This document shows positions 9,947 through 23,199 of a stretch of DNA of 64,000 bases, one piece after another (positions within the stretch are counted from its first letter, which is position 1; each line of letters begins with the position of its first letter). Source of the stretch: a virus; the IMG/VR virus record IMGVR_UViG_3300037470_001029, positions 8,038 to 72,037 of that record; one strand, 5' to 3'. Below the pieces are notes generated by a model, which did no database searches, was not told the DNA's origin, and worked only from the letters and a program-made list of their open reading frames with translations. Position numbers and translations under genes: made by a program.

Positions 9947-11227
9947 TTACGCCGCCGCGGAATCCTGCACGGTCAAAATGGTCTTGTCCCACGCGAGCGC
10001 CGCATCGCCATCGCCGTTGATCTCGGCGGTGAACGGGTAGGTGCGCATGATCGCCTTCAGCCCGTCGTCCGGCGTGTCGCCCATCAGGGCGATCTTGCCG
10101 AGCGTGAACGCCATGAAGTCCGCCGTCGCGCTCGTGTCGACCGCGGCGACCACGGCGAGGCTCACCTTGGTGCCGGCGTCGAAGATCGCCTGCAGGACCG
10201 TGTCGTCGAACATCGCGGTGAACGATCCGTTCACCTTGACGTTGCCGTGGTTGAAGTCCGGCGAGGCCGGGTTGCCGATGGAAGCGCCCACCGGGGTCAG
10301 GCTGCGGTCGACGGACAGCGACAGGCCGGTCACGTGCTCGACCAGAACACCGTTGATGTAGATCGCGCCGTTGACGGCCTGCGAAACGCCGGTCGTCGTC
10401 TCGGCCGCCGGGGTAGTGAGCACCTGCGAACTGCCGAGCGTGCGAACCCCGAGCCCTACCAGGTCGAACGCGACCCCCGACGCGCCCGCGGCCGGGATCG
10501 AGAAGTCGATCTTGTTGGACTTGATGTCCGGGAACAGCTCGCTGCGCGCCTTGTCGCTGTACCACTCTTCCCAGGTGAAGAAGTCGTTCGTGTGCGCCGT
10601 GAGCGGGGCGAGCGAGATCTTGCCGACGACGGTGAACGTGACTGAGCCGGTCTCCGGGGCCTTCGGCGCGACTGCGGTGCCGTCCAGGAACTTGCCGGTC
10701 ATGTCGCCGGCGGTCAGCGCCGTGATCCAGAAGTTGCGGTCGTTGTTCGCCGTCGCCGTGGTGGTGAAGCCTGTCCAGCGCCCGACCATCCCGACCTTGA
10801 GCCCTGCGGCGAGGAACCCGGCAGAGCCATCGACGAACTGCGGCCCCGCAGCCTGCGACGTGATGTCGGTCCCGGCGACCAGCGGCGTCACCGCCGCGAA
10901 ATCGGCCATCAGCACAGAGGCGATGATCGGCGAATAGGTGCCGGCCGAGAGCAGGCAATCGAGCTTGAGCCCGGTGTCCTTCTGCCCGAACACCACGCCG
11001 GTATCCTGGCGGTGGCTCACGATCTCGTCGAGGGTCGTCGACTGGCGCGTCGCGGTGGCGACCGACGTGCGACGGCGGACGATCTGCCCTCCGGCGCCGG
11101 ACTCCGGCACGCCCAGGCCACCGGCCTGTTTCTTGAAAACCGTCTGCTTGTAGAGGCCCTGCGCGGGCGACAAACCGAGGAGGAGCCCCGCGCGCTGGAG
11201 ATACTGAACGATCAACTTGAGTTTCAT
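9947..11227 (-). CDS. Major tail tube protein with an 18-aa N-terminal leader
   Basis: 426 aa; GAAGGAG RBS; AQGLYKQTVFKKQ...RRRTS...DEIVSHRQ tube-like N-terminus; position before the chaperones. Confidence 0.85.
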   Translation of the reverse strand: MKLKLIVQYLQRAGLLLGLSPAQGLYKQTVFKKQAGGLGVPESGAGGQIVRRRTSVATATRQSTTLDEIVSHRQDTGVVFGQKDTGLKLDCLLSAGTYSPIIASVLMADFAAVTPLVAGTDITSQAAGPQFVDGSAGFLAAGLKVGMVGRWTGFTTTATANNDRNFWITALTAGDMTGKFLDGTAVAPKAPETGSVTFTVVGKISLAPLTAHTNDFFTWEEWYSDKARSELFPDIKSNKIDFSIPAAGASGVAFDLVGLGVRTLGSSQVLTTPAAETTTGVSQAVNGAIYINGVLVEHVTGLSLSVDRSLTPVGASIGNPASPDFNHGNVKVNGSFTAMFDDTVLQAIFDAGTKVSLAVVAAVDTSATADFMAFTLGKIALMGDTPDDGLKAIMRTYPFTAEINGDGDAALAWDKTILTVQDSAAA

Positions 11228-11251
11228 TTGCGTGACTCCTTCGTCTTTGGT

Positions 11252-11617
11252 TTACTTTTCGGGCGTCGCGTTACGCCGCGCCACGTGCACTTCGCTCGGG
11301 TCTCCGCCGTCCGCCGCAGCGACTTGGGCCTCACCCTTGGCGATCTTCTCCCTGGCCGCCGCTGCCTTGGCCTCGTTCTCCTTGAGCAGCTTCTCGCCCG
11401 CGGCCCTGCGCTTGGCATGCACGCGGGCCTGCTCCGGCGTGGGCTCGACAGGAGAGTTCGCCTCGTCCGTCTTGACGAGCCGCTCGAACTCAGCCTTCTC
11501 CGCAGCCGGCGTGCCCTTCGGCCACAGTGCGGAGAATCCGCCCTTGTCGCTGAGCATGCCCTTGGCATTCTCGATCGTCGCCTCGGTTTTCTTGCCCTTT
11601 GCATCGAAGATCCACAT
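11252..11617 (-). CDS. Hypothetical protein
   Basis: 121 aa; GAAGGAG RBS; fits the operon. Confidence 0.6.
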   Translation of the reverse strand: MWIFDAKGKKTEATIENAKGMLSDKGGFSALWPKGTPAAEKAEFERLVKTDEANSPVEPTPEQARVHAKRRAAGEKLLKENEAKAAAAREKIAKGEAQVAAADGGDPSEVHVARRNATPEK

Positions 11618-11639
11618 GGCCGTCTCCTTCGTTGGAAAA

Positions 11640-12044
11640 TTAAGCTACCCAGGCGTGAAAAGGAACCCTTACGACGAGCGACCATCGGTCGCCGTCAGGG
11701 ACGCCGTTGCCTACCTCGGCAGGCTTGTTAATAGAAGTGTTGATCCCCGAATGCGTCAGCGTCAACGCCTTCGGGAACCAGTCGCCGATCGCCTTTGCGC
11801 GGGCCGCGGCGTTGATCGAGCCCTGGTTCTGCGGGTACATCAGCGTCACCTGCAGGTAGCCTTGCTCGAACCGGCCCTTGCCCCATTCCGCGTTGTCGGG
11901 GCGCGCGAACAGGACGTGCGACTTCTGGTAAGGAACCGTTACCGCCGGCGGCGCGAAGGAGACGTTCTCCCACGCGGTAGCCAGCGACGGCGCCATCGCG
12001 TTCAGGCGGTTTTCGAGCGCGGAGCGGACGGCGGCCTGGCTCAT
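11640..12044 (-). CDS. Tail terminator-like protein (DUF4128-like)
   Basis: MSQAAVRSALENRL...TAWENVSFAPP...GYLQVTLMYP; ATGA overlap with the upstream gene. Confidence 0.75.
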   Translation of the reverse strand: MSQAAVRSALENRLNAMAPSLATAWENVSFAPPAVTVPYQKSHVLFARPDNAEWGKGRFEQGYLQVTLMYPQNQGSINAAARAKAIGDWFPKALTLTHSGINTSINKPAEVGNGVPDGDRWSLVVRVPFHAWVA

Positions 12045-12514
12045 GCCAGTCCTTGCGCGGCGCCGGCGACAATCTGCTGGAACTCGATCACAGTAATGTG
12101 CACCATGCCGGCCGGCGCCTGCGTAGACCACCCGTCCTCGAGCCTTTGCCCGTAAGGCAAGTTGTTCGTGATGATGAAATTGCCGCCGGCGACCCTCTCA
12201 GGGATCGCGCCGATTATCCTCATCGTCGAGACGTTGCTCTCTGCCGGGCTCGGGTCGATGTCGGGCAGCTCGTTCGACGGCACCGAGTTGTTCCCCCCCT
12301 GCCAGTTCGCGCGGAACCTGCCGCCGACGTAGCCGGGAGGGGGCGGAGACTTCCACAAGTCGCCGTCTCCGACCGGCGAGAGCTCTACCAGCCGCGTGCC
12401 GACGTCGATGATCGTCTTGCGCACCGCGGTGTCCGCGTTCTTCCCCGCCTTGGCGGCGAACGCCGCGAGCTGAAGGCTGAACGAGTCGGACCGGTTGTAG
12501 TAGCCGCGAGCCAT
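12041..12514 (-). CDS. HK97 gp10-like tail completion protein
   Basis: SPVGD...GGRFRANWQ...NNLPYGQRLEDGWSTQAPAGMV motifs. Confidence 0.8.
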   Translation of the reverse strand: MARGYYNRSDSFSLQLAAFAAKAGKNADTAVRKTIIDVGTRLVELSPVGDGDLWKSPPPPGYVGGRFRANWQGGNNSVPSNELPDIDPSPAESNVSTMRIIGAIPERVAGGNFIITNNLPYGQRLEDGWSTQAPAGMVHITVIEFQQIVAGAAQGLA

Positions 12515-12837
12515 TATCTCCGCTTCTTCTTGAAGATAGACGACGACTTCTTCTTGGACATCGGTCCGGTGGCAGGCAAATGCAGCGCCCCGCGGGTAAG
12601 CGGATTCGGGCGACGCAGGTCGGGCACGCCGGGACCACGCGTGATTGGATTCGGTCTGCGCAGGTCAGGCACTCCAGGGCCGCGTCGGATGGGGTTTGGA
12701 CGCCGCAGGTCAGGAATCCCGGCCCCTCGCGTTATGGGGTTTGGCCGGCGAAGGTCCGGCACCCCGCGACCGCGGCTCAGCGGATTCCGTTGCCGCGCTA
12801 CCTTTGCCGCCCTTCTTGCCGCTTCGCTCCAAGCCAT
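12514..12837 (-). CDS. Basic repeat protein starting MAWSEAARRAA (sixth member of the MAWS family)
   Basis: ATG 12837 with AGGAG RBS; 107 aa; 15-aa tandem repeats; Lys/Arg-rich tail. Confidence 0.75.
   Translation of the reverse strand: MAWSEAARRAAKVARQRNPLSRGRGVPDLRRPNPITRGAGIPDLRRPNPIRRGPGVPDLRRPNPITRGPGVPDLRRPNPLTRGALHLPATGPMSKKKSSSIFKKKRR
12583..12790 (-). repeat. 45-bp coding tandem repeat, about 4.5 copies (PNPITRGPGVPDLRR)
   Basis: Visible in the translation; DNA copies differ mostly at synonymous positions. Confidence 0.85.
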
Positions 12838-12898
12838 GTCGATCTCCTGTGGTTCTTGCGCGCCCAATAAAAAGGCGGTCATGAATATGGAAAGCATT

Positions 12899-13267
12899 TC
12901 ATTTTCTCAAATGAAGCATGTACAGCACCACGGTTCCTGCGGGGTTCGTCTCTCCGATTCCCTTAATCACGTAGACCGCGCCGTCGGCGAGGATGATCAG
13001 ATCCTCGAGCCCTGGCACGATGCCCTTTTCCATCAGCAACTTCTTGTCGCCGACGAGGATTAACCCGCCCGGGCCATTCTCCTGTCCTGCCCTGAAGTCG
13101 AACAGCGCTGCCTTGCGCGCTACATCCACCGGCCCGCCACCGGTCATCCCACCCGTGTCCGGGTCGTAGGTGCCAGGCGCGTTATTGCGCAGCGTCACAA
13201 CCTGACCGAATTCCTCTAGCAGATCGGCGGAAACAACGGCAAGTTCGTCGTAGAGAGGATTCGTCAT
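12899..13267 (-). CDS. Head closure / head-tail joining protein
   Basis: LLEEFGQVVTLR...YDPDTG...GDKKLL...NPAGTVVLY motifs; synteny. Confidence 0.75.
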   Translation of the reverse strand: MTNPLYDELAVVSADLLEEFGQVVTLRNNAPGTYDPDTGGMTGGGPVDVARKAALFDFRAGQENGPGGLILVGDKKLLMEKGIVPGLEDLIILADGAVYVIKGIGETNPAGTVVLYMLHLRK

Positions 13268-13791
13268 GCGCGTGCCACCCGCATATTAAGGGCGCTGCCG
13301 GTCAGGTAAGGCGAGAGCATTGCATCGATCGCCCTAAAACGCGGATATTCGCTCGAAGCCGGGTCGTAGGTCACACTGATTTCTCCGACGCGCACAGAAG
13401 ACTTCGAGCGCGTCAGATCTGGGGAAAGCTCACCGGCCGCGGCGCGCAGCGCCAGCTCGGCGCAGGCGTTCTTGACCTCGGCAGGCACGATGTTGTCGGC
13501 AACGAGGTAAGGTTGCTCGCCGACGCCGCCCTGGATGAACGGCTCTAAGTAGACGTAAGCCCTAGGCCAATCGAGGGCCTGCGTAGCATCCTTGCGGAAC
13601 CCTTTCCAGCGACCGCGGAACATCTGCAACATGTAGTCAGTCGCGCGGCGCAGTGCTTGCTCCATCTGCGCCTCGGTAAGCAGTGCCCACGTCGATGCGC
13701 CGCGCGCCGCGTGGTATGCGGAGACGTCGGCGACCGAGACGTAGCTCTCGGCGTTCGCCTTCGCGGTGCCGTCTTCGACTTCGAGGCTCAT
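13264..13791 (-). CDS. Head-tail adaptor (DnaT-like family)
   Basis: MSLEVEDGTAKANAESYVSVAD...QALDWPR...VPAEVKNACAELA motifs. Confidence 0.8.
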   Translation of the reverse strand: MSLEVEDGTAKANAESYVSVADVSAYHAARGASTWALLTEAQMEQALRRATDYMLQMFRGRWKGFRKDATQALDWPRAYVYLEPFIQGGVGEQPYLVADNIVPAEVKNACAELALRAAAGELSPDLTRSKSSVRVGEISVTYDPASSEYPRFRAIDAMLSPYLTGSALNMRVARA

Positions 13792-15542
13792 GGATAGTCT
13801 CTCTGAATCGCAGCAAGCGGATATTGCGCACTTGTTCCGGTGAGCGGGAATTTATCTGATGGCACAACACCGATCAGTGGGTACCTATGGCTAGCAGGCA
13901 CCAGAGCGATGCACTGATCAGTCGCATTGCACGCCTCGTCGACCGAGGCAGCAATGGTCCCTGGAGGCAGGTCGATCTCGCCGGACAACAGATCGAGCGC
14001 GGAGCCTGCCTCGACGGTGATCCCCAAGGTGAGTCGAGAACCACTTGGGGTGTCGATGCAGGTTGCCGGTTCGGTGACCGAAGCAAGAAGGGTCCCCGTG
14101 GCCGCAGGCGCATCCGTACCGCTAGCCGCTTCCGCAACCGCGGCGTCGGCGTCCCTGGAGGCGCTTGGCGACTCGGATGCGGACGACGCCTCCGCGGTGG
14201 CCACAAAATGGGCCTCGTTCAGCCACCCGGGCTCGTCCACGGCTGTCGCCGCTTCAAAGGCCCCGGAATTCAGGCTCGCTGCTGCGCCAGGAGCATCCGT
14301 GGCCGCCGCAGGCTCGTTCACCGCAGCTACGCCCGCCACAAACGACTGTGGGGAATCCATGGCCGCTGCGGGCTCGCCCACATCGGCTTGGAACGTGGCG
14401 ATGGCAGACGGCGAATCGGTGGCGGCCGCAAGTTCGTCGCCGGCCGCGGTGATGCCACCCAAGATAGCGCTCGGGTCGTCGGTCGCCGCGGCGCTCTCGG
14501 TCTGCTCGACCTGCCTCGAGGCAAAGGACTCCGGCGCATCGGTGACAGACGCGGACTCGGCCTGAGCAGCTTCCCGTAAGGCCTGACTTGTCGGATCGTC
14601 GGTCGCAACTGCCGATTCAGTCGTGTCCGCGACGGCGGAGGTCTGGGCGCTCGAGGAGTCAGCCGAAGCACCCGTCTCTCCCGTCGCCGCGGCATGCACG
14701 ACCACCGCGCTGGGGGAATCTGCGGCAGACGAAGTCTCCGTTGTATCGCCTGCAACCGCGCCTCCTCCTGCCTCGATGGAAGCATCCAAGCTGTCAGCAG
14801 CAGAGGCCGACTCGTCTGCCGCCGAGTTCAGGGTAGACGCGCCGCTTGGGGAGTCAGTTGCGCTCGCCGCCTCGCTACTGTCGGCATCGATCGCCGGATC
14901 TGTCCAGGTAAGGACCACGATCCCGGCGGCGCCAGCGCCGCCGATCTTGTTCGCCGCCTGGTTTGTGTTCCCTCCTGAGCCTGCGCCGCCGTAGATGCTG
15001 CCAGCCGTGCCTACGACTCGGACCGCTACGCCTGCGCCAGAGGCCCCGCTGTAGCTGTTGCCGTCGAGGAAGGCGCTCGTCTCTGGCGTGCCTGCCGTGT
15101 CGGCCGAAGCCGCACCACCGACACCGCCAGGCCCTGCCGCGCCGCCGCCTGCCCCAGAGACGGTGTTCGTCCCGGTCGCGTTCCCGCCGTTCCCGCCCGC
15201 AAAGGTGACGTCACCGGTATTCGCCCCGACTAGGGCCGAGGCGCCAGTCGCGCTGTTCGCGGCAACTGTTGCACCGCCAGCGGCCGACAGGACGGTTGAT
15301 GCGCCCTGCACTACCGTGGATGCTGCTGCCGCCCCGCCGACCGTGATGTCGAGAGTGCTCTCGCCGCCTTTGGTAATGGCGACCTTCGCGTAGCTGCCGC
15401 CCTTGCCGCCCCCGCAGTTCGCGGGGTTGTTCGTGGCATCTCCACCCGCACCGCCGCCCCCCAACGCCTCGGCGGTGAGTTGTGTGACGCCGGCAGGCCA
15501 CGCCCACGCGGCGTCAGATGCGGTGAGGACGGCAGAGCCCAA
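13788..15542 (-). CDS. Virion fibre/appendage protein: Gly-rich head domain plus acidic Ala/Ser/Thr repeats
   Basis: 584 aa, TTG start. Gly-rich GGGG segments are followed by roughly 20-aa periodic E-S/P-A-A-A-T-D-S-P repeats. Confidence 0.6.
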   Translation of the reverse strand: MGSAVLTASDAAWAWPAGVTQLTAEALGGGGAGGDATNNPANCGGGKGGSYAKVAITKGGESTLDITVGGAAAASTVVQGASTVLSAAGGATVAANSATGASALVGANTGDVTFAGGNGGNATGTNTVSGAGGGAAGPGGVGGAASADTAGTPETSAFLDGNSYSGASGAGVAVRVVGTAGSIYGGAGSGGNTNQAANKIGGAGAAGIVVLTWTDPAIDADSSEAASATDSPSGASTLNSAADESASAADSLDASIEAGGGAVAGDTTETSSAADSPSAVVVHAAATGETGASADSSSAQTSAVADTTESAVATDDPTSQALREAAQAESASVTDAPESFASRQVEQTESAAATDDPSAILGGITAAGDELAAATDSPSAIATFQADVGEPAAAMDSPQSFVAGVAAVNEPAAATDAPGAAASLNSGAFEAATAVDEPGWLNEAHFVATAEASSASESPSASRDADAAVAEAASGTDAPAATGTLLASVTEPATCIDTPSGSRLTLGITVEAGSALDLLSGEIDLPPGTIAASVDEACNATDQCIALVPASHRYPLIGVVPSDKFPLTGTSAQYPLAAIQRDYP

Positions 15543-15545
15543 CGC

Positions 15546-15725
15546 TTACTCCTCGACCGACTCGACCTGGTCCTCGGTGAACGACCTCTCCTGCCCGTCC
15601 TCGGTCTTGACGATCACGCCGACCTCGCCGGTTTCCTGGTTGAACACGAAGCGCTCGATCACACCCTCAACCGGCGCTGGGAGGACTTGGCGAACCGCGT
15701 CGCCCTTCTTGAACTTCGTTGCCAT
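15546..15725 (-). CDS. Small hypothetical protein (59 aa, MATKFKKGDAVRQ..., SH3-like)
   Basis: Read manually; TAAGGAG RBS; fills the gap between neighbouring genes. Confidence 0.6.
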   Translation of the reverse strand: MATKFKKGDAVRQVLPAPVEGVIERFVFNQETGEVGVIVKTEDGQERSFTEDQVESVEE

Positions 15726-15736
15726 GTGCCTTCTCC

Positions 15737-16459
15737 TTACAGCGAGGAGCTGTAGCTGACGTTGAGGGTATCGGAGACGTCCACGACCTTGTCACCGCCG
15801 GTGAACACGCCGGCCGACCAGAGCTTGCCGTTCACGTCGGCGATGGTCGAGAGGGCGCCGGTGCCGAAGATGATGAAGCAGCCCTTGACCGTGCCGCCTG
15901 TGGTGATGATCGGGAACGACAGCGCAGCCGAAAGAGCCTTCGACTTCGCCGCCGCTGCCGACCACGCGCACGTCTTGCGCGGTGTGGTATACAGCGGGAA
16001 GTTCGTCGAGGACCCGGCCTCCTTCCAGCCGTTCGTGCCGTTGATCTGCGCGGCGGTGTCACCGATCGCCGTGGTCGTATAGCTGACCGAGCTGATCAGC
16101 CCCATGTAGGGGCCGACGACGGTGTAAGCAGAACCCGCGAGGAACGTATCCAGCGCGAGGTTCGCGCCCTCGGTCGTCACGTGGTTCGGTGCCTCGCCGC
16201 GCCACTTCTCCTCGAGCGGGATCTCCGCGAGCGCCTTCCGAAGGGAGCGAGCGCGCAAGACCAGCGAGCCAGGCTTGAAGCAGAGCAGCTCGTCGTTGAT
16301 CTCGGTATACTCGCGGCGGAGATGTTCGACCGGACCAACGTTGACGGCGCGGAATATCCCGACGGCCTTCGCAGCCTCGACGACGACCAGGTTCTTGGAA
16401 ATTCCTGCGAGAGCAGAGGATCGACCATTTGCCCTTTCGTTCGTTTCCTTGCGTTCCAT
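15737..16459 (-). CDS. Virion structural protein
   Basis: KWRGEAPNHVTTEGANLALD...VDVSDTLNVSYS beta-rich module typical of virion appendage genes; TAAGGAG RBS. Confidence 0.6.
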   Translation of the reverse strand: MERKETNERANGRSSALAGISKNLVVVEAAKAVGIFRAVNVGPVEHLRREYTEINDELLCFKPGSLVLRARSLRKALAEIPLEEKWRGEAPNHVTTEGANLALDTFLAGSAYTVVGPYMGLISSVSYTTTAIGDTAAQINGTNGWKEAGSSTNFPLYTTPRKTCAWSAAAAKSKALSAALSFPIITTGGTVKGCFIIFGTGALSTIADVNGKLWSAGVFTGGDKVVDVSDTLNVSYSSSL

Positions 16460-16472
16460 CTGCGTCTCCTTA

Positions 16473-16515
16473 GAAAGAGAAAAGGGGTTGGGCCGTTGCG
16501 CAGCCCAACCCCTTT
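16473..16515 (-). terminator. Rho-independent terminator after the capsid operon
   Basis: AAAGGGGTTGGGC...GCCCAACCCCTTT 13-bp inverted repeat running into a T-rich tract on the minus strand. Confidence 0.75.
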
Positions 16516-16533
16516 GGGCTTTTGATCGGCGGA

Positions 16534-17217
16534 CTAGCCTTTCTTGTCCGCCTTCTTCAGCTTTTTGATCAGCTCATCCTTGTTCTCGCCCTGCGTGTAA
16601 TCCACGCCGGCGGCGTCAAGGCGCTCCTGCAGCTCGGACTTGGTCAGGGTCTCGAGGTCCTCGTCGGCGGGAGGAGCCGCGGTGCCCTTGCCGGCGCCCT
16701 TGCCCGACGCAGCCTTGGCTTCCTTCTCCTGGCGGGCCTTGAGTGCCTCGTTGGCGGCCGCGGCGTCCTTCTCGGCCTTGTCGGCATCGGCCTCGGCCTT
16801 CTCCGCGGCCTTTTCTTTCGCCGCGGCGTCGGCCTTCAGCTTCGCCAGGCTCGCGGGCGTCGCGGTAACGTTGACGCCGGGGTTGCCGCCGTTGGCGGCG
16901 AGCGCGGCGGCGCTGTCGGCGGCGGTGCGCGCAGCGACGGCGGCGGCGCGGGCCTTCATCGCCGGGTTCGTCTCGGCCATCTTCCGGTGGTCCTGGACTT
17001 CGGTCGAGGCGGCGTGCTGCTCGTACTGCGAGCGCATGTTCTCCTTGCGCCGCTCCTCTTCGGAGGCGCGGAGCACCTCGCCGGCGGTCTTGGCGGGCGG
17101 GTCGCCCTTGGCAGCGTTCGGGTCGTCGAACGTGTACTCGCCGGTCTCGACCATCTCTTTCGCGTCGACGGCTTCGTGGTGGGAGACGGCGCCGGTTTCC
17201 TTGTGGAAGACTTTCAT
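16534..17217 (-). CDS. Ala/Lys-rich protein with a C-terminal HeH/LEM-like domain
   Basis: C-terminus LETLTKSELQERLDAAGVDYTQGENKDELIKKL; GAAGGAG RBS. Confidence 0.65.
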   Translation of the reverse strand: MKVFHKETGAVSHHEAVDAKEMVETGEYTFDDPNAAKGDPPAKTAGEVLRASEEERRKENMRSQYEQHAASTEVQDHRKMAETNPAMKARAAAVAARTAADSAAALAANGGNPGVNVTATPASLAKLKADAAAKEKAAEKAEADADKAEKDAAAANEALKARQEKEAKAASGKGAGKGTAAPPADEDLETLTKSELQERLDAAGVDYTQGENKDELIKKLKKADKKG

Positions 17218-17300
17218 GTTCTCTTACTCCTTCGGGTGTTCTCTTACGTTGGGAGGCCCCGCCGCCGGGCTTGGAAAGCCGAGCGGCGGGGAGGGCGGGA

Positions 17301-17804
17301 CTAGCGCTTCGCCAGGAAGGCGAGGTAGGTGATGCTGTTCGCCACGGCGCCGACGTTCACCGTGCGGATGCGCAGGTAGCGGAAGGTCGTGCCGCCCTTC
17401 TCGTTGCGCACCGGCATGATGTAGCGGCCGACGACGTCGTCGTAACCCTGGCCGTCCGCGACGTGGCGCGCCGACAGCGCCGCGCCGAGCGTGATGCTGC
17501 CCAGCGAGGCAATGTTGGCGGCCGTGCCGAAGGTGGCATCCGGAGAACCCTGGACGATGATCTCGTAGCTCTCGTCGGTCGTCACCACGTCGATCGCGGA
17601 GACGTCGACGACGAGGTCCATCGCGGCCAGCCCGTTGCCGATGTCGACGATCAGCGTGCCGTCCGCGGAGGCGGTGACCGCGGCCGACGCCTTGAGCAGC
17701 AGCGCGTTGTCGTAGGTCTTGCTGGAGTAGAGAGCGGAGAGCACCGTTCCCGTCCACGCCATGTAGGCGGCGATGCCCGCCAGGAAGTGCTTGATGCTTT
17801 TCAT
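17301..17804 (-). CDS. Capsid decoration/cement-like protein with a 23-aa leader
   Basis: ATG 17804 with AAAGGA RBS; immediately after the major capsid gene; beta-rich, ending TYLAFLAKR. Confidence 0.65.
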   Translation of the reverse strand: MKSIKHFLAGIAAYMAWTGTVLSALYSSKTYDNALLLKASAAVTASADGTLIVDIGNGLAAMDLVVDVSAIDVVTTDESYEIIVQGSPDATFGTAANIASLGSITLGAALSARHVADGQGYDDVVGRYIMPVRNEKGGTTFRYLRIRTVNVGAVANSITYLAFLAKR

Positions 17805-17832
17805 GAGCTTTGTCCTTTCGGTGGGTGGCAGG

Positions 17833-18858
17833 TTACGCGACGACGGCGAGGTTGCCGATGTGGCGCAGGCGGGTGAGGGAGCGGCCGTTGTAGACGGCGA
17901 ACCCGTTGTACCACTCGACGCGGGTCCGATACATCGGAGAAGCCTCCAGCTCGCCCAGGTCGCGCACGTCGACGCCGCCATTCTGGATGCCCTGGATCGC
18001 GCCATCGCCCATGCTCAGCACGTAGATCGACGTCGCCGTCGCGGTGCCGGAGGCCGCGGCCTCGTTGAAGCCGAGGATCGCCGCCTGCGTGTTGTCCAGG
18101 TCCACCGTCAGGATCGGCAGGTCGTTGTAGATGGTGATGCGCTTGCCGAAGGAGTCCTTGTCGTAGGTGATGAAGCCGCCGACGGTGTAGTTGCGCGCGG
18201 CCGCGGTGATGAGCCGGCGCATCGCCTTGCTCATCAGCAGGTGGGTCGGGTTCAGCGTCTGGTCGATCGCCTCATCGAGCTTGCCGAGCGAGAGCGCGGC
18301 GCCGTTGGCCGTCGAGCCTGCGCTGATCACCTGCGCTCCGGTGGCTCGCGTCTGCAGCCCGTCGAACTCGCGCGGATCGGTGGCGGTGTCGCCCTTGATG
18401 AACTTCTTCGTCCACGCCAGCGCCAGGGCGCGGACCTTCATGGCCTCGTGGGTGGAGCGCTGGGCCATGCCCATCGTGTCGACGATGAACTTGTCGACGT
18501 CGAGGTCGCCGCCGGCGATCACCAGCGACTCGGTGAGGGGATTCAGCACGCCGGTCGAGGGCGTGTAGGCCTCGTTCACCCCGCGGAAGCCGACGCCGGG
18601 CAGCGACTCTTCCCGGTTGTACTTCATCGCGTTGCCGGGGATCGTGTCGAAGGGCAGATTGGCGAGGATGTCGCTGGAGCCCGCGTAGAGCTCGATGATG
18701 GCCTGGCGGATCACGTCGCCGGTCTCGAGCTTCGCAGCCTCGACGAGAGTCAGGCCGCCGAGCACGACGCCCTGGCGGTACATCAGGTTGTTGAGGAACG
18801 CGGAGAGCGCTGCGATGACCAGCATGACCGCGAGATGGAGTTTCTTGAGGGCAGCCAT
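17833..18858 (-). CDS. Major capsid protein with a 34-aa hydrophobic leader
   Basis: ATG 18858 with AAAGGAG RBS; LTLVEAAK...YNREESLPGVGFRGVNE...GGDLDVDKFI...EFDGL...YRTRVEWY motifs. Confidence 0.92.
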   Translation of the reverse strand: MAALKKLHLAVMLVIAALSAFLNNLMYRQGVVLGGLTLVEAAKLETGDVIRQAIIELYAGSSDILANLPFDTIPGNAMKYNREESLPGVGFRGVNEAYTPSTGVLNPLTESLVIAGGDLDVDKFIVDTMGMAQRSTHEAMKVRALALAWTKKFIKGDTATDPREFDGLQTRATGAQVISAGSTANGAALSLGKLDEAIDQTLNPTHLLMSKAMRRLITAAARNYTVGGFITYDKDSFGKRITIYNDLPILTVDLDNTQAAILGFNEAAASGTATATSIYVLSMGDGAIQGIQNGGVDVRDLGELEASPMYRTRVEWYNGFAVYNGRSLTRLRHIGNLAVVA

Positions 18859-18902
18859 GGAGGCTCCTTTCGAATCGGTTGAATGGGAAAATCGTTTGCC
18901 GC

Positions 18903-19007
18903 TCGCCCATCCCGGACGATTCGCCGAAGTCCCCGCATCCCGCGGATCTCCAAGCAACTTCTTTTCTGGGTTCGCAGGCCAAAGCACCTGTCCCAGATGC
19001 TTTGGCC
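18903..19007 (-). promoter_or_regulatory. Three GGGAY-loop hairpins upstream of the major capsid gene
   Basis: GGCCAAAGCATCT-GGGAC-AGGTGCTTTGGCC, TCCGC-GGGAT-GCGGG and TCGTCC-GGGAT-GGGCGA. Confidence 0.65.
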
Positions 19008-19101
19008 TTGACCCCAGTGCGTCGGGAACTCCTAGGCTCTCCCGACCAAGCCTGAGCCGGCAGCATATACCTGCCGGAGCGGCGCTGTAACCCAGTGCCT
19101 T

Positions 19102-20148
19102 TTAGCGCTTGGCCCCTGCCTGCAATTCGCGCGCTTTCGTCAGCCGATCGGTCGGAGACAATCCCGAGAAATCGGGCGCGCCGCGCACGGTGCGCTTGTC
19201 GCCCTTGGCGTCGCCGCCGCTCCCGCCTGCCGGGAACCAGTGTGGGCAGTCCGCGCGGCGCTCCTCGATCCAGTCCTCGACCGAGAAGGGCGCCTTGCCC
19301 TCCTTGTTGAGCACGACCGTCTCGCCGTCCTCCTCGAACTGGACAGCCTTGAGCTCGTCGTTCAGCGAGAAGATCTGCCTGGCGCGCAGCAGCGCATCCT
19401 CGATCGCGCCCGGGAACATCCCCGCGTTGGTCGCCGCGGCGCGCACCTTGTTGTCGATCGCGTGCTCCATCAGCGTCGAGGCCACCTCCAGCGCGCCGTC
19501 GCGCTCCTCGCCCGCGGTCTGCGCCTGGCTCATCAGCTCCTCGCGCATCTTCTGGGTGCGGGCCTCCATCACCTTGTCGATGTGGCCGGCCTGGATCATC
19601 TTGCGCTCTTCCTCGCTGGCGAACTGCGACAGGAGCTCGCGGGTCTTGACCGGGTCGATGCCGTCGAACTGCTTGAGCTGCGTCTCGTACTCCTCCCTAA
19701 CCTTCTTGATCTTGTCTTCCGAGTTACGGCGCTCGTTCTCCGCGACCTTCTTGAGCCCGGTGACATCTTCGACGTCGACCTTGGAGTGGTCCAGCTTGAA
19801 CTTCTTCGTCGCCGGGTCCTCGGCGTACCAGGCGCGCATGAACTCCGGCACCGCCTCGAGCTTGTCGACCTCGGGGGCGATGGCGCCGAGAGACAGCCCG
19901 CAGCGCTCGATCCATGACGGCTCGAACGGGTCCGCCGCCATCAGCTTCAGCGGCTGGAGGGGACGCCCGAACGTCAGGACGCTGAGCCACAAGCGGCCGG
20001 TGAACAGGAGGTAGATCCGCTCGCGGAGCGTCAAGCCCCAGCACGAGATGGCCTGCCCGTTGTCGCCGACGTGCGCCGGCAACGGGATGTACGGCTTCTG
20101 GTCCTTCGCGATCACGATGTTCTGCTGCTTGAATTCGACCGGCTTCAT
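19102..20148 (-). CDS. Head scaffolding protein with an 88-aa N-terminal extension
   Basis: Coiled-coil core EDVTGLKKVAENER...FDGIDP...CPHWFPAGGSGG; directly upstream of the capsid gene; AAAGGAG RBS. Confidence 0.85.
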   Translation of the reverse strand: MKPVEFKQQNIVIAKDQKPYIPLPAHVGDNGQAISCWGLTLRERIYLLFTGRLWLSVLTFGRPLQPLKLMAADPFEPSWIERCGLSLGAIAPEVDKLEAVPEFMRAWYAEDPATKKFKLDHSKVDVEDVTGLKKVAENERRNSEDKIKKVREEYETQLKQFDGIDPVKTRELLSQFASEEERKMIQAGHIDKVMEARTQKMREELMSQAQTAGEERDGALEVASTLMEHAIDNKVRAAATNAGMFPGAIEDALLRARQIFSLNDELKAVQFEEDGETVVLNKEGKAPFSVEDWIEERRADCPHWFPAGGSGGDAKGDKRTVRGAPDFSGLSPTDRLTKARELQAGAKR

Positions 20149-20172: not shown

Positions 20173-20373
20173 CCGCGCATCCCGCGCGGTAAGGTTTGCC
20201 CGAATCCCTCGAGCCCTACTTGCTTTTTTTCTTGCCCTTCTGGAACGGCGGCAGCTTGCCCTTGCCCTTCGGAGCTTCGGACTTGCCTCTGCTGCCCTTC
20301 TGGTAGTTCTTCAGCCCTTCAGGTACCTTTCCCATGATCGCCTCCTAAGTTTTGCTCGCGCGATCCCTGCGCG
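20173..20373 (-). promoter_or_regulatory. GGGAT-loop hairpins upstream of the scaffold and small basic genes
   Basis: CCGCGC-GGGAT-GCGCGG (20173-20189), GCTCGA-GGGAT-TCGGGC (20198-20214) and a looser CGCG-CAGGGAT-CGCG (about 20359-20373). Confidence 0.6.
20216..20335 (-). CDS. 39-aa Lys-rich peptide MGKVPEGLKNYQKGSRGKSEAPKGKGKLPPFQKGKKKSK
   Basis: Read manually; TAGGAGG RBS 5 nt upstream of the ATG. Confidence 0.6.
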   Translation of the reverse strand: MGKVPEGLKNYQKGSRGKSEAPKGKGKLPPFQKGKKKSK

Positions 20374-20792
20374 TAGGGTTCACTTCTGAGAGTATATCCT
20401 GGCTTGTTCTCCAGCCGACGCGCCCGCACGTTGTCGGTCGCGTCGAAGCCCAGCTTGCGCAGCGCGCTGGCCAGCGCCATCGGATCTCCGTGGCTCGCCG
20501 CGTAATCGTCTGCCTCGAGTTCTTGCCTGTAGCGGCGCGACGGCGACGCGCGCATGAAGAAGCAGACCAGCAGGAGATTCTTCCAGATGTGGCGGTGGTG
20601 GCGGTGCCCCTCCTCGTGCAGACGCACGGCGTGCCACTCGTCCGGCGTGAGGCGGTCTACGTAATCGTCTGGGATGATGATGCGGAAGCCGTTGAAGGAT
20701 GCGCCCTGCGGATTGGCGTAATACATGCCGACTAGATGCAGCGCGATCCACAAGACCCAGATGACGGCGAAGACTGTTCCGGCAATGACCAT
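20319..20792 (-). CDS. Membrane-anchored zinc metallopeptidase (M48/M56-like)
   Basis: N-terminal transmembrane helix; LTPDEWHAVRLHEEGH (HExxH); QELEADDYAA...ALASALRKL. Confidence 0.8.
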   Translation of the reverse strand: MVIAGTVFAVIWVLWIALHLVGMYYANPQGASFNGFRIIIPDDYVDRLTPDEWHAVRLHEEGHRHHRHIWKNLLLVCFFMRASPSRRYRQELEADDYAASHGDPMALASALRKLGFDATDNVRARRLENKPGYTLRSEPYAQGSREQNLGGDHGKGT

Positions 20793-21865
20793 CAGGCGTA
20801 TCTCGCGCGCAGTTGTCCGACGGTCATTATGCGCGTCCCGTCGAGCGACAGCAACTGCTCCAGTGTCAGCTTATTGTCGCGCCAAAGGTCTGCGCGCCCG
20901 GGTCCGAGCGCCTCGTCCTGCCATGCCTTGCCCTTGCGGCGCAGGAAGGCCTCGAAGTCCATGCCAGCCGACACGGGACCGTCGCTCGATGCGCGGCGGC
21001 CGGGCTTGGCCTCCTCGGCGTCGATCCCTAGCTCCTTGTAGGTCTTCGTCACCGCGACCGCCACGCACCGGCAGCCCCAGTGGATGACGCCCGGCCCGCC
21101 CTCCCACGCGAGGGAGTGGCCCTGCGGTTTCGGCGGGTCGTCGAGCAGAGTGTACCGCTTGCGATCGCGCGGCCCGCAGATCGGGCATGTGTGGACATCG
21201 AGCGTCGCGAGCCAGCGGATTCCCGAGAGCGCGTCTGCATTCCTGCGGAATGTCTCCATGCGCGCCTCATTGGCGGCCGCCTGGATGCTTGTGTGCACGA
21301 GCGAGCGGGCATTGCTGCGCGCCACATCCATAACTCCTGGAATGCCGAGCCGCGGCGACCCGACAACGCGGCGAACAATTTGTTCGTTGGCCTCGCCTGC
21401 GGCGATCCCCTGGCGGACGGCGGTGGAGAACCGCCAGGCGGTGTCCTGCGACTGCCGCAGCCACCAGTCGGCCGACGACGAACCCAGCAGCAGAGCGTTG
21501 GACGCCACGCGGGCGAGGAACGTCTCCGTAGGCAGGCCGACCGCCAGCACGATGCGGAGCGCAGGCCCGAGCGCCTGCGCGGTGGTCTCCGCCGTGGCTC
21601 GCGCCGCGCCGGCCATCGACGTGCTGAGGACGGCCTGCCCGGTCGCGTAGTAGCGGTCGATCACGGCCGTGGCCTGGCGCAGCATCTGTTGCGTGCGCGC
21701 CTTGGTGAACTCGGTCAGGTCTCCGCCCGCAAGCGTCTGCGCCAGCTCGGCCTGCAGCCGGTTGAGTACGGCGAGCACGCGGGCGCGCACGCCGGCCTCG
21801 AACCTGAGCAGGTCGATCTGGTGCTCGAGGATGAGGTCGATCAGCGCCTGGTCTATGGTTCCCAC
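20792..21865 (-). CDS. Minor head protein (Mu gpF / SPP1 gp7-like)
   Basis: RWLATLDVHTCPIC...HWGCRC motifs; GTG start overlapping the upstream TAG. Confidence 0.85.
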   Translation of the reverse strand: MGTIDQALIDLILEHQIDLLRFEAGVRARVLAVLNRLQAELAQTLAGGDLTEFTKARTQQMLRQATAVIDRYYATGQAVLSTSMAGAARATAETTAQALGPALRIVLAVGLPTETFLARVASNALLLGSSSADWWLRQSQDTAWRFSTAVRQGIAAGEANEQIVRRVVGSPRLGIPGVMDVARSNARSLVHTSIQAAANEARMETFRRNADALSGIRWLATLDVHTCPICGPRDRKRYTLLDDPPKPQGHSLAWEGGPGVIHWGCRCVAVAVTKTYKELGIDAEEAKPGRRASSDGPVSAGMDFEAFLRRKGKAWQDEALGPGRADLWRDNKLTLEQLLSLDGTRIMTVGQLRARYA

Positions 21866-22053
21866 TAGCAAGAGCTCCGCGGTTTAGGCGCAATGATAAT
21901 GCGGCGATCAGTGACCTGCGTACGCAACCTGAGGCTGTTGTCGCGCCAACCACACTTTGAGGCTTCGAGAGCATCAAACCTCTCATCGATGTCCTTCATC
22001 ATGCTCACGGCAAGATTTCTAGCCAACTGCTGAAGTAGCTCTTTGAGCATCAA
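21865..22053 (-). CDS. Small hypothetical protein (lower GC)
   Basis: 62 aa; GGAGG RBS; overlaps both neighbours. Confidence 0.5.
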   Translation of the reverse strand: MMLKELLQQLARNLAVSMMKDIDERFDALEASKCGWRDNSLRLRTQVTDRRIIIAPKPRSSC

Positions 22054-22768: not shown

Positions 22769-23199
22769 TCCGCCTTCTTCATTCTGTTGGTCATGCCCTC
22801 TTGCAGCATCAGGCAGGAGCCGTAGTCGTGGCAGACGAGCCTGCCCTTGAGCATTCCATAGTTGTACCGCTTGAAGTCGGTCAGGTAAGCGGGCATTCTC
22901 TCGGGGAACTTCGTTGCCATCGTCGTGCGGCGCTGCATCAAGATCCCGCCGCTCTGCGAGATCCAGACACACGGGGCGAACCACCTGGCATGGGGAGTTC
23001 CCTTGACCATATCCCACACCTGCCACTCGAAGATATTCTGGAAACGGTCCTTGTTCTGGTCTTCGATCTTAATAACGATGCCATCGTCGATCGCAGACTC
23101 GTACACGTGCCGCGTCAGCCCGGTGCCGATCAGGGCGCCCGTTACGCTGACTGCCAGCTCGTGCTGAAGCGACGGGTTGTACAGGTGCGTATTGCTCAC
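22756..23199 (-). CDS. Minimal protein-kinase-like protein (147 aa)
   Basis: IGTGLTRHVY (Gly loop), VIK, NIFE, TDFKRYNYG (catalytic loop), HDYG (DFG-like); GTGA overlap with the portal stop. Confidence 0.7.
   Translation of the reverse strand: MSNTHLYNPSLQHELAVSVTGALIGTGLTRHVYESAIDDGIVIKIEDQNKDRFQNIFEWQVWDMVKGTPHARWFAPCVWISQSGGILMQRRTTMATKFPERMPAYLTDFKRYNYGMLKGRLVCHDYGSCLMLQEGMTNRMKKAEWWD

What the first reader, a model, noticed from the sequence alone, without database searches (positions are those of the whole stretch)
11174..20148. Shared, cleavable-looking leaders on four virion assembly proteins
Seen: four proteins, each with a strong RBS at the extended start, carry N-terminal extensions ending in the same motif. 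Major capsid: LMYRQGVVLG|GLTLVEAAK (34 aa). Tail tube: YLQRAGLLLG|LSPAQG (18 aa). Scaffold: WIERCGLSLG|AIAPEVD (88 aa). Decoration: YMAWTGTVLS|ALYSS (23 aa). The consensus is [YWL]-[MLI]-x-[RW]-x-G-x-x-L-[GS]. From recall, the motif ends about where leaderless homologues begin (e.g. MALTLVEAAK-type capsids). The leaders are basic then hydrophobic. Established analogy: Prp removes N-terminal leaders from staphylococcal phage 80alpha capsid and scaffold, but that motif (LNLQFF|A) is different. Inference: an undescribed leader-processing system that licenses both head and tail subunits for assembly, possibly at the membrane.
Basis: partly seen in the sequence, partly recalled or inferred. Interest (0 to 1): 0.85.

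Follow-up and report, generated by a model that had tools for sequence, protein, structure and literature searches.

The report
Shared removable-looking leaders on phage virion proteins
Four building blocks of this uncultured phage (capsid, scaffold, capsid decoration, tail tube) are made with extra N-terminal leaders that end in one common motif, and only leader-bearing phages carry a small membrane-anchored zinc protease, which suggests a virion maturation step I found described in no paper and that is still untested at the bench.

Summary
Each of the four genes starts at an ATG behind a strong ribosome-binding site. Each leader ends exactly where leaderless relatives begin.

- **Capsid:** 49 of the 119 closest homologues carry 25-56-aa leaders. 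These vary in sequence but end [YF][ML]x[RK]QG-L-x-L-x, and the Gly at P5 is present in 48 of 48 non-redundant leaders.
- **Other proteins:** the same junction motif recurs on scaffold, decoration and tail-tube homologues in other phages.
- **Other capsid families:** it also recurs on two unrelated capsid families, P22-coat and Gp13-like.
- **Peptidase link:** the M48-like zinc peptidase next to the scaffold gene occurs only in leader-bearing phages. The counts are 5/11 and 11/22 leader-bearing loci against 0/59 and 0/45 leaderless loci.
- **Motif variant:** two partial peptidase homologues accompany a different leader motif, LFPGV.

About half of the leader-bearing phages lack the peptidase, including records rated complete. 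Cleavage is not shown anywhere.

Best reading (0.5): these are cleavable propeptides, cut in this phage by its own membrane-tethered M48 peptidase.

The closest known case is host Prp processing in staphylococcal phage 80alpha. I rate this a new variant of a known kind.

The scan found the same system before on other DNA (e1-5963337, e1-5911141, e1-6086544, e1-5353533). I found no paper describing it.

The parts
17833..18858 (-). Major capsid protein gene (341 aa; PF20911 GP7 / phrog_212).
18757..18858 (-). Capsid leader of 34 aa. It has a basic N-terminus and a TM-like hydrophobic helix. It ends ..LMYRQGVVLG just before GLTLVEAAK.
   Evidence: It is modelled as helix 2-29 that breaks at Gly30 (the model is poor overall).
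9947..11227 (-). Tail tube gene (426 aa; PF18906 Phage_tube_2 / phrog_290).
11174..11227 (-). Tail tube leader of 18 aa. It ends ..YLQRAGLLLG just before LSPAQG.
   Evidence: second-best hit of the capsid-derived matrix in the window; leaderless homologues start M-x-S-P-A-Q-G.
19102..20148 (-). Scaffolding protein gene (348 aa; phrog_206 matches from residue 93).
19885..20148 (-). Scaffold N-terminal extension of 88 aa. Residues 1-70 are a fused small viral domain. A linker follows that ends ..WIERCGLSLG just before AIAPEVD.
   Evidence: The same fusion occurs in L021 and L023, and a different N-terminus with the same motif in L003.
17301..17804 (-). Decoration (phrog_427) protein gene (167 aa).
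17736..17804 (-). Decoration leader of 23 aa. It ends ..YMAWTGTVLS just before ALYSSKTYD.
   Evidence: Leaderless homologues start MANxYSQFTYD. Leaders with Gly at P5 occur in L003, L021, L023, L037, L055 and L056.
20319..20792 (-). M48-like zinc metallopeptidase (157 aa). It has one N-terminal TM helix and the HEEGH and ELEAD motifs, and lies between the MuF-like gene and the scaffold gene. It is the candidate leader peptidase.

Best explanation
The four extensions are N-terminal propeptides that share one recognition element. That element is a helix ending in [YFW]-[MLI]-x-[RK]-x, then an invariant Gly (P5), then an extended h-x-h-x stretch (P4-P1), directly before the residue that follows the initiator Met in leaderless relatives.

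In this phage the element is most likely cut by the phage's own minimal M48-type zinc metallopeptidase (20319-20792). The peptidase is tethered to the inner membrane by one N-terminal helix, with its catalytic domain probably on the cytoplasmic side. Cutting would release capsid, scaffold, decoration and tail-tube subunits with the same N-termini as in leaderless phages.

- **Shown:** the leaders are translated and conserved as a class. The junction is exact. The peptidase occurs only in leader-bearing phages.
- **Inferred:** cleavage itself, the enzyme-substrate pairing, the peptidase topology, and any role in timing or placing assembly.
For: **The leader class is real**
- 49 of 119 other capsid homologues have leaders. 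Gly at P5 is present in 48/48 non-redundant leaders, and it is the only invariant leader column among 50 aligned sequences.
- All 50 leaders have Lys/Arg and no Asp/Glu in the first 8 residues. 34 of 50 have a TM-grade hydrophobic segment, against 0 of 50 mature parts.
- In P22-type capsid leaders, synonymous codon differences are about as many as non-synonymous ones. One pair shows 7 against 0.

**The junction equals the start of leaderless forms**
- Capsid: MALTLVEAAK.
- Scaffold: MALxLVVD..VPE.
- Decoration: MANxYSQFTYD.
- Tube: MxSPAQG. Leaders with the motif occur on P0153, P0217 and P0221.

**The same motif precedes other capsid families next to the same peptidase**
- P22_CoatProtein/phrog_283 and Gp13-like/phrog_247 capsids carry it.

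**Peptidase association**
- GP7-type capsid loci with at least 2.5 kb of upstream DNA: 5/11 leader-bearing against 0/59 leaderless.
- P22-type loci: 11/22 against 0/45.
- Fisher p = 2e-5 and 1e-7 on all loci, not corrected for relatedness.
- It was the only ORF family found in at least four leader-bearing loci and in none of the 81 leaderless ones that split cleanly: all five M48-positive loci and none of the eight M48-negative. Three other ORF families were also absent from all 81 leaderless loci, but each was in only four of the 13 leader-bearing loci, mixed across M48-positive and M48-negative.
- Of 23 loci found with the peptidase as query, 21 hold a capsid and/or scaffold gene with a leader. 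One contig ends too early and one is ambiguous.
- Two partial peptidase matches (L125, L126; 38-45% identity) go with a different motif, LFPGV, on three or more proteins.

**The peptidase looks active**
- HExxH, the downstream E-x-x-A-D and other columns are invariant in 25 sequences.
- The Pfam M48 score is 22.3, above the cut-off of 20.3.
- The model has pLDDT 89.
- The five best structural matches are all M48/M56 enzymes, with ZMPSTE24 at Z 9.1, rmsd 3.0 over 119 residues. The next match scores 4.9.

**No other head protease**
- No S78, S49 or ClpP-type head protease is present in this 72-kb record.
Against: - No datum shows that any leader is removed.
- About half of the leader-bearing loci lack the peptidase. 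It is absent from the whole records G003 and G006 (CheckV 100%), G008 (96%), G009 (88%) and G007 (81%). The peptidase therefore cannot be the general leader-removing enzyme.
- The slot between MuF and scaffold carries unrelated low-GC cargo in relatives, so the peptidase could be one more accessory gene.
- Only the capsid leader is TM-grade in this window. The tube, decoration and scaffold leaders are not, which weakens a membrane-based model.
- Loci are related to each other and several are near-duplicates, so the co-occurrence counts overstate independence.
- In the closest known system, 80alpha, capsid-protein cleavage is dispensable (PMC5744158, abstract).
Confidence: 0.5

Rival explanations
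1. The leaders are cleavable propeptides, but a host enzyme removes them, as host Prp does for phage 80alpha. On this view the phage M48 peptidase is a dispensable back-up or does something else.
For: - Half of the leader-bearing phages have no M48 gene and no S78, S49 or ClpP protease, including records rated 96-100% complete.
- All four leader-bearing loci from named genomes are Betaproteobacteria/Burkholderiales, while leaderless ones span many phyla. That fits dependence on a host factor.
- P22-type leaders begin like Sec signal peptides (MKK, a hydrophobic stretch, then AQA/AHA).
- There is precedent for a host protease (PMC5744158, passages).
Against: - It does not explain why the M48 gene is found only with leaders, in four capsid families.
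- It does not explain why a different leader motif goes with the L125/L126 peptidase matches.
- No host substrate or host enzyme was identified. The only M48-like host hits in the Janthinobacterium genome are weak, Ste24-like and BlaR1-like (E 4e-5 and 7e-4).
Confidence: 0.22
2. The leaders are not removed. They act as retained tags, for example for membrane tethering, chaperone binding or contact with the scaffold. The M48 peptidase has another substrate.
For: - Cleavage is unproven.
- In 80alpha the scaffold leader is needed for assembly but need not be cut (PMC5744158, abstract).
- Leaders are gained and lost freely between close relatives, so they are not essential parts of the fold.
Against: - The conserved element sits at the junction, not along the leader, as expected for a cut site.
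- Leaders of 25-58 aa, many with TM-grade hydrophobic segments, would sit on every capsid, decoration and tube subunit. Leaderless relatives with 75-80% identical mature parts do without them.
- A domain that stands alone in other viruses is fused upstream of the motif on the scaffold. That makes sense if it is released.
Confidence: 0.2
3. This is a start-codon artefact. Translation begins downstream, and the 'leaders' are untranslated or chance open frames.
For: - A TTG lies exactly at the tube junction (codon 19).
- GTG codons lie three residues before the capsid and decoration junctions.
Against: - Strong Shine-Dalgarno sequences precede the upstream ATGs, and none precedes the internal codons.
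- The frame is open in 50/50 leader-bearing capsid homologues, with indels only in multiples of three.
- There is purifying selection on the leader peptide.
- In L023 the scaffold has no internal Met at all.
Confidence: 0.04

Closest known systems
Prp-dependent N-terminal processing in Staphylococcus phage 80alpha and relatives (PMC5744158; abstract and passages read)
   Same: - Short N-terminal leaders with one shared motif sit on non-homologous virion proteins: capsid, scaffold and, in phi13, the major tail protein.
- They are removed by one protease.
- Leaders are present in some relatives and absent in others.
   Different: - The motif differs: F|A there, Gly-h-x-h-x| here.
- Leaders here are longer (18-88 aa against 13-14 aa) and often TM-like.
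- The 80alpha enzyme is the host cysteine protease Prp, whose cellular substrate is ribosomal protein L27. Here the candidate is a phage-encoded, membrane-anchored M48 zinc peptidase, and no host substrate is known.
- The hosts are Gram-negative.
- Cleavage here is unproven.
Prohead proteases with consensus-site propeptides (T4 gp21, giant-phage gp245 of SPN3US; seen in search listings and abstracts only; details recalled)
   Same: One phage-encoded protease trims several head proteins at a short consensus during maturation.
   Different: - Those enzymes are soluble serine-type proteases that work inside the prohead on head proteins only.
- Here the candidate is a membrane-tethered metalloprotease.
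- Its putative substrates include a decoration protein and the tail tube.
M48/M56 membrane zinc metallopeptidases (Ste24/ZMPSTE24, HtpX, BepA, BlaR1)
   Same: - HExxH plus a downstream Glu (ExxAD).
- The same catalytic fold (Z 6.2-9.1).
- Membrane attachment.
   Different: - It is only 130-157 aa with a single predicted TM helix.
- There is no seven-helix chamber and no TPR or sensor domain.
- It is encoded in a phage head module.
- No cultured-phage homologue exists in the 50,697-record collection.

Membership tests
Peptidase family M48 (gene 20319-20792) | HExxH zinc-binding and catalytic motif | tested here: met
   H59, E60 and H63 are invariant in 25 sequences. The motif reads HEEGH in the window.
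Peptidase family M48 (gene 20319-20792) | Third ligand Glu in a downstream E-x-x-A-D motif (its role is recalled from knowledge of the family) | tested here: met
   E91, A94 and D95 are invariant.
Peptidase family M48 (gene 20319-20792) | Score above Pfam's curated threshold for PF01435 | tested here: met
   The score is 22.3 bits against a cut-off of 20.3 (E 1.3e-4). The match covers only residues 25-75. Many database relatives carry PF01435 as a precomputed domain.
Peptidase family M48 (gene 20319-20792) | Catalytic-domain fold like solved M48/M56 enzymes | tested here: met
   VIA-align gives ZMPSTE24 Z 9.1 (rmsd 3.0, 119 aa), 3c37 Z 7.8, BepA Z 7.4, BlaR1 Z 6.7 and Ste24p Z 6.2, with the next match at 4.9. 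Foldseek E-values are weak (0.28 and worse).
Peptidase family M48 (gene 20319-20792) | Proteolytic activity | not testable with these tools
   This needs an enzyme assay.
Prp/80alpha-type leader system | One shared N-terminal motif on non-homologous virion proteins | tested here: met
Prp/80alpha-type leader system | Cleavage motif with F|A, shared with ribosomal protein L27 | tested here: not met
   The junctions here are Gly-h-x-h-x|, with no F|A. The 80alpha motif is taken from PMC5744158 passages.
Prp/80alpha-type leader system | Processing by the host cysteine protease Prp | not tested
   The host is unknown because the record is a 72-kb virus contig. I did not search for Prp homologues.
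Canonical prohead protease systems (S78 / S49 / ClpP type) | A protease gene of one of these families in the phage genome | tested here: not met
   PF04586, PF01343 and PF00574 give 0 matches in G000 (CheckV 100%). The controls gave matches.
Sec-type signal peptide | Basic n-region, hydrophobic h-region and a small-x-small c-region | tested here: inconclusive
   - n-region: 50/50 leaders are basic.
- h-region: 34/50 have a TM-grade segment.
- c-region: A-x-A-like sites are evident in P22-type leaders but not in the window's capsid leader.
- No signal-peptide predictor was available.

The most novel reading that the evidence does not exclude
This is a portable two-part maturation module of tailed phages. 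One part is a minimal, membrane-tethered M48 metalloprotease. The other is a transferable N-terminal pro-leader whose junction motif co-evolves with it (Gly-L-x-L-x in most loci, LFPGV in a sister group).

The module can be attached to any abundant self-assembling virion protein, including capsids of at least four families, scaffold, decoration and tail tube. On this reading the subunits start as membrane-held, assembly-incompetent precursors and are released by cleavage. Head and tail polymerisation would then be gated at the inner membrane.
Probability: 0.3. Interest if true: 0.85.

Novelty: new variant of a known kind. Interest (0 to 1): 0.7.

Why it matters
- **A new protease class for virion maturation.** If the leaders are cut by the M48 peptidase, a membrane-anchored metalloprotease would join the serine-type prohead proteases and host Prp. 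It would act on tail-tube and decoration proteins as well as head proteins.
- **How premature assembly is prevented.** It would help explain how phages stop their most abundant subunits from polymerising too early.
- **Better annotation.** Leader-bearing and leaderless forms differ by 25-60 residues, which matters when calling capsid-gene starts.
- **A possible tool.** A short, portable and specific tag-and-protease pair could be useful in the laboratory.
- **It is common.** Four tenths of the closest capsid homologues in public metagenomes carry the leader, yet it is absent from the cultured-phage records I checked. Bench work has therefore missed it.

Tried and rejected
**Complex prediction.** I ran complex prediction with the peptidase (alignment A2), capsid residues 1-70 (A3) and Zn. 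The result was no verdict (score 0.00, controls not run). I use it neither for nor against.

- 25621-26334 (papain-like; phrog_16701; Pfam C1 just under its cut-off) and 24765-25268 (no Pfam hit; weak phrog_1128) gave no tblastn match in any leader-bearing locus.
- The one weak papain-like hit was in a leaderless locus, L008.
- I rejected both as the shared leader peptidase. Some loci do not reach that far upstream.

**Search for another protease family in leader-bearing loci that lack M48.** The all-ORF comparison found none in the DNA held. The MuF-scaffold slot there holds unrelated low-GC ORFs.

**A weak peptidase-profile hit in leaderless locus L087.** It scored E 0.038 and 13 bits on the opposite strand. 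I dismissed it.

**Short profile HMM of the 12-residue motif.** It is too short to separate signal from noise in the 72-kb genome. The tube leader ranks third, the decoration leader scores about 0 bits, and the scaffold leader is not found.

**Type IV prepilin-like reading (G|LTLVE; the consensus is recalled).** I rejected it. The residue before L-T-L-V-E is Ala as often as Gly. The same sequence starts the leaderless capsids, and the other three proteins lack it.

**Lipobox and double-glycine leader readings (recalled consensus).** Cys or Gly-Gly at the junction occurs only in a minority of leaders.

**Cultured phages.**
- 274 records hold capsid homologues.
- In the 40 rows listed, no match reaches further upstream than query residue 19.
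- In the two records I opened (CcrSC, DSS3_MAL1) the annotated start is the leaderless one.
- I did not open the other records.

**Capsid model with leader.** It is poor overall (pLDDT 56). I use only the leader helix 2-29 and its break at Gly30, and only as a hint.

**Counting note.** Five GP7-type loci (L031-L033, L035, L084) have an in-frame ATG 16 codons upstream without the motif. I counted them as leaderless.

**Papers.** The supplementary files of papers were closed and I did not consult them. They may hold virion N-terminal data that I could not see.


Full report
**What is there**

The window is 64 kb of a 72,037-bp virus record that CheckV rates 100% complete. The structural genes lie on the minus strand in this order:
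- terminase and portal (23196-24758)
- MuF-like protein (20792-21871)
- a 157-aa M48-like peptidase (20319-20792)
- scaffold (19102-20148)
- major capsid protein (17833-18858; PF20911 GP7 / phrog_212)
- decoration-type protein (17301-17804; phrog_427)
- head-tail genes
- tail tube (9947-11227; PF18906)

Each of the four genes in the finding starts at an ATG 6-9 bases behind AAGGAG or AAAGGA(G). The capsid ATG is at 18858. The family profiles match only after the leaders.

**The leaders are a real, conserved class**

Capsid homologues:
- Among the 119 best capsid homologues from public genomes and metagenomes, 49 are 332-363 aa with an N-terminal extension. The other 70 are 308-311 aa and start M-A-L-T-L-V-E-A-A-K.
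- The extensions are 25-56 aa (median 38) and vary in sequence.
- Every one has Lys/Arg and no acidic residue among its first eight residues.
- 34 of 50 (window included) have a TM-grade hydrophobic segment, against 0 of 50 mature parts.
- All end in [YF]-[ML]-x-[RK]-Q-G-L-[VIL]-L-[GNT], directly before [AG]-L-T-L-V-E.
- The Gly at P5 is present in 48 of 48 non-redundant leaders. It is the only invariant leader column in an alignment of 50.

Tests against chance and against non-translation:
- A matrix built from those 48 leaders, without the window, ranks the window's capsid leader first and its tail-tube leader second among 103,855 six-frame positions. The scores are 26.0 and 18.1 bits, and the next is 13.0 in a non-coding frame.
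- The decoration and scaffold leaders score 7.1 and -7.5 with this capsid-trained matrix. On that test alone they would not stand.
- In a set of closely related P22-type leaders, synonymous codon differences are as frequent as non-synonymous ones. One pair differs by 7 synonymous and 0 non-synonymous codons. The peptide is therefore under selection.

**The junction is exact in all four families**

Each bullet compares leader-bearing forms in related loci with the leaderless forms.
- **Scaffold**
  - Leaders end ..ACGLILG|A (L006), ..ARSGLILA|A (L024/L028), ..ATRGLVAN|A (L055), ..KRTGLSLG|A (L003), ..RRMGLSLG|A (L021) and ..SRRGLLLG|A (L023).
  - The leaderless forms start M-A-L-x-L-V-V-D..V-P-E at the same aligned position.
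- **Decoration**
  - Leaders end with Gly at P5 in L003, L021, L023, L037, L055 and L056.
  - The leaderless forms start M-A-N-x-Y-S-Q-F-T-Y-D. In L021 the old Met is still present at P1'.
- **Tail tube**
  - Among the 119 other homologues listed, three carry leaders that end ..KTGLVLC|LSPAQG (P0153), ..DSGLALG|AIAQK (P0217) and ..CLGLVLM|ANAEG (P0221). A fourth (P0178) has a signal-peptide-like 47-aa extension.
  - The rest of the full-length entries start M-x-S-P-A-Q-G or similar. Four entries are N-terminally truncated.

Which proteins carry a leader differs between close relatives. L003 has leaders on capsid, scaffold and decoration. L006 has them on capsid and scaffold. L005 has one on the capsid only. 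The window has all four. The leader therefore behaves as a portable module.

**The scaffold 'leader' is a fusion**

Residues 1-70 of the scaffold ORF match, by predicted structure, viral proteins of 82-95 aa that stand alone (TM 0.94-0.98 by query). By sequence features they match clusters of 76-81 aa. The same in-frame fusion, followed by the motif, occurs in L021 and L023. L023 has no internal Met, so the fusion must be translated there. A separate domain placed upstream of the motif is what a processing site would allow.

**The M48-like peptidase**

The 157-aa protein has one N-terminal helix (residues 2-25 in a model with pLDDT 89). HExxH, a downstream E-x-x-A-D and other columns are invariant in 25 sequences.
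- Pfam M48 scores 22.3 bits against a cut-off of 20.3.
- The five best structural matches among 48,161 representative chains are all M48/M56 enzymes: ZMPSTE24 (Z 9.1), 3c37 (7.8), BepA (7.4), BlaR1 (6.7) and Ste24p (6.2). The next match scores 4.9. Foldseek alone is weak, with E 0.28 at best.
- Charged residues follow the TM helix and do not precede it. By the positive-inside rule (recalled) this puts the catalytic domain in the cytoplasm. That is an inference.
- The family has 82 members at E up to 1e-5 in the 5.8-billion-protein set. They are mostly 130-160 aa, and some sources name them M48 metalloprotease.
- None occurs in 50,697 cultured-phage records.

**Association with the leaders**

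GP7-type capsid loci:
- After removing three duplicates, 13 loci are leader-bearing. Another 81 are leaderless and one is truncated.
- The peptidase profile finds the gene in 5 of the 13 and in 0 of the 81.
- Counting only loci with at least 2.5 kb upstream, this is 5/11 against 0/59.
- In the all-ORF comparison, the peptidase was the only ORF family in at least four leader-bearing loci and no leaderless locus that split cleanly, being in all five M48-positive loci and none of the eight M48-negative ones. Three other ORF families were also missing from all 81 leaderless loci, but each was in only four of the 13 leader-bearing loci and mixed across the M48-positive and M48-negative groups.

Loci found with the peptidase as query:
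- The search gave 23 loci. Four are on the same contigs as loci already held, and some are near-identical to each other.
- 21 hold a capsid and/or scaffold gene with a leader. One contig ends right after the peptidase (L114) and one is ambiguous (L122).
- The capsids there belong to other families. These are P22_CoatProtein/phrog_283 (L106, L109, L111, L117, L118 and others), Gp13-like/phrog_247 (L105) and phrog_1357 (L126).
- In each case the family profile starts after the leader.
- The leaders end ..KTGLVLG|, ..KDGLALG|, ..NQGFALG| and ..RKGLAVA|.

P22-type capsid as a second, separate sample:
- 23 of 80 loci are leader-bearing, cut exactly where the leaderless M-A-N-T-L-T-G-L begins. 11 of these have the peptidase.
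- 57 are leaderless and none has it. With adequate upstream DNA this is 11/22 against 0/45.
- Fisher tests give 2e-5 and 1e-7.
- The loci are related, and about 30 of the leaderless P22-type loci are near-identical. These numbers are upper bounds on the real support.

Finally, the partial peptidase matches in L125 and L126 (38-45% identity over the matched part) sit with leaders that end LFPGV on capsid, scaffold-like and other proteins. That is what co-evolving specificity would look like.

**What speaks against a simple enzyme-substrate story**

- Half of the leader-bearing phages have no M48 gene.
- It is missing from the whole records G003 and G006 (both rated 100% complete), G008 (96%), G009 (88%) and G007 (81%).
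- G000, G003 and G006-G008 also lack S78, S49 and ClpP-type proteases.
- L146 has almost the same leader as L133 and L135 but no peptidase. In its place, and in L137 and L134, sit unrelated low-GC ORFs.
- So either a host enzyme can do the job, as Prp does for 80alpha, or leaders can stay on.
- The only M48-like matches in the Janthinobacterium host genome of L005 are weak hits to a Ste24-like and a BlaR1-like protein.
- All four leader-bearing loci from named genomes are Betaproteobacteria or Burkholderiales. Leaderless ones come from many groups. That fits a host factor but is a small sample.

**Mechanism proposed**

*Shown.* The precursors carry a variable N-terminal part and a conserved junction. 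The variable part is often a basic tip plus a hydrophobic helix, and once a whole fused domain.

*Hint.* In the capsid model the leader is one helix (2-29, pLDDT 73-86) that breaks at the invariant Gly30 and continues as an extended stretch into the N-arm. The model is poor overall.

*Inferred.*
- The Gly ends the helix, and P4 and P2 (Leu/Val/Ile) dock as a strand into the peptidase.
- The cut leaves the same N-terminus as Met-processed leaderless proteins.
- The membrane-tethered enzyme acts on precursors held at or near the inner membrane.
- This delays polymerisation of the four most abundant self-assembling subunits.

Nothing here shows timing, location or necessity.

**Comparison with what is known**

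The nearest case is staphylococcal phage 80alpha.
- Host Prp cuts between F and A and removes 13-14 residues from capsid and scaffold.
- The same motif occurs on the capsid of phage 80 and on the major tail protein of phi13.
- Capsid cleavage is dispensable, and the scaffold leader is needed but need not be cut (PMC5744158; abstract and passages read).

The present system shares the logic. It differs in motif, leader size and character, candidate enzyme class, enzyme origin and host group. It fails the defining F|A/L27 feature, so it works like the Prp system but is not a member of it.

Serine-type prohead proteases with consensus-site propeptides (T4, SPN3US) are a looser analogy. I saw those papers only as listings and abstracts.

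Four full-text searches found no paper on an M48-type peptidase or signal-peptide-like leaders on capsid and tube proteins of tailed phages. Subscription journals and supplements were not searched.

**Earlier notes of this scan**

- The same phenomenon was noted and followed up before on other DNA.
  - A relative with the MARxG.. motif on capsid and scaffold, where about half of the relatives had a small membrane zinc protease (e1-5963337).
  - A phage with four tagged virion proteins, including the tube (e1-5911141).
  - An LFPG variant with a tiny zinc peptidase (e1-6086544).
  - LFG-ending leaders (e1-5353533).
- My counts reproduce the 'about half' figure independently.
- My counts also link the LFPG-type leaders to peptidase homologues found with the same profile (L125, L126).
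- Those notes also pointed me to PMC5744158.

**Verdict**

- The leaders and their motif are real, widespread and portable across at least four capsid families and across head and tail proteins.
- The M48 peptidase is the only candidate enzyme with comparative support, but it is not universal.
- Cleavage remains to be shown.
- I rate this a new variant of a known kind, with interest 0.7.

Noticed in passing
window 19939-20148 (-): The first 70 residues of the scaffold ORF are a domain that exists as a stand-alone viral protein elsewhere: 82-95 aa by structure (TM 0.94-0.98) and 76-81 aa by sequence features. Here, and in L021 and L023, it is fused in frame upstream of the leader motif.
   Followed up: partly
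L127-L146 (e.g. L127:5001-5171): Leaders of P22-coat-type capsids begin like textbook Sec signal peptides: MKK, a hydrophobic stretch, then AQA or AHA. About 35 more residues follow before the Gly-L-V-L-G junction. This suggests a helical hairpin or a signal-anchor. No predictor was available.
   Followed up: no
L137:3109-3900, L146:2909-3841, L134:3219-3848: In relatives without the peptidase, the slot between the MuF-like and scaffold genes holds unrelated ORFs in a region of 50-55% GC, against a locus average of 62-63%. The L137 ORF has a stretch that reminded me of trypsin-like proteases. That is from recall and was not tested.
   Followed up: no
L005:3997-6213: The large terminase of the Janthinobacterium prophage is 738 aa. 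An insert of about 300 aa splits the terminase sequence, which looks like an intein. A separate overlapping ORF with His-rich motifs lies inside it.
   Followed up: no
window 18859-19101: The intergenic region between scaffold and capsid is unusually long at 243 nt. Other first-reader notes (e1-6142217) describe hairpins there.
   Followed up: no
window 24765-26334 (-): Two further peptidase-like genes flank a small TM/coiled-coil gene between terminase and portal. One is papain-like (phrog_16701). The other is 167 aa and looks like a permuted papain/NlpC-P60 enzyme from recall, but it has no Pfam hit. Neither is conserved in related loci. They may be lysis or accessory genes.
   Followed up: partly
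L125:7681-9500, L126:3255-4631: Peptidase matches (38-45% identity over the matched part) are accompanied by LFPGV-ending leaders on three or more proteins. This links the system to the LFPG variant noted earlier in the scan.
   Followed up: partly
protein P0178 (tube homologue, 454 aa): This tail tube homologue has a 47-aa signal-peptide-like extension that ends ..PLFAIG before M-T-V-P-A-E-G. It may be a third motif variant.
   Followed up: no
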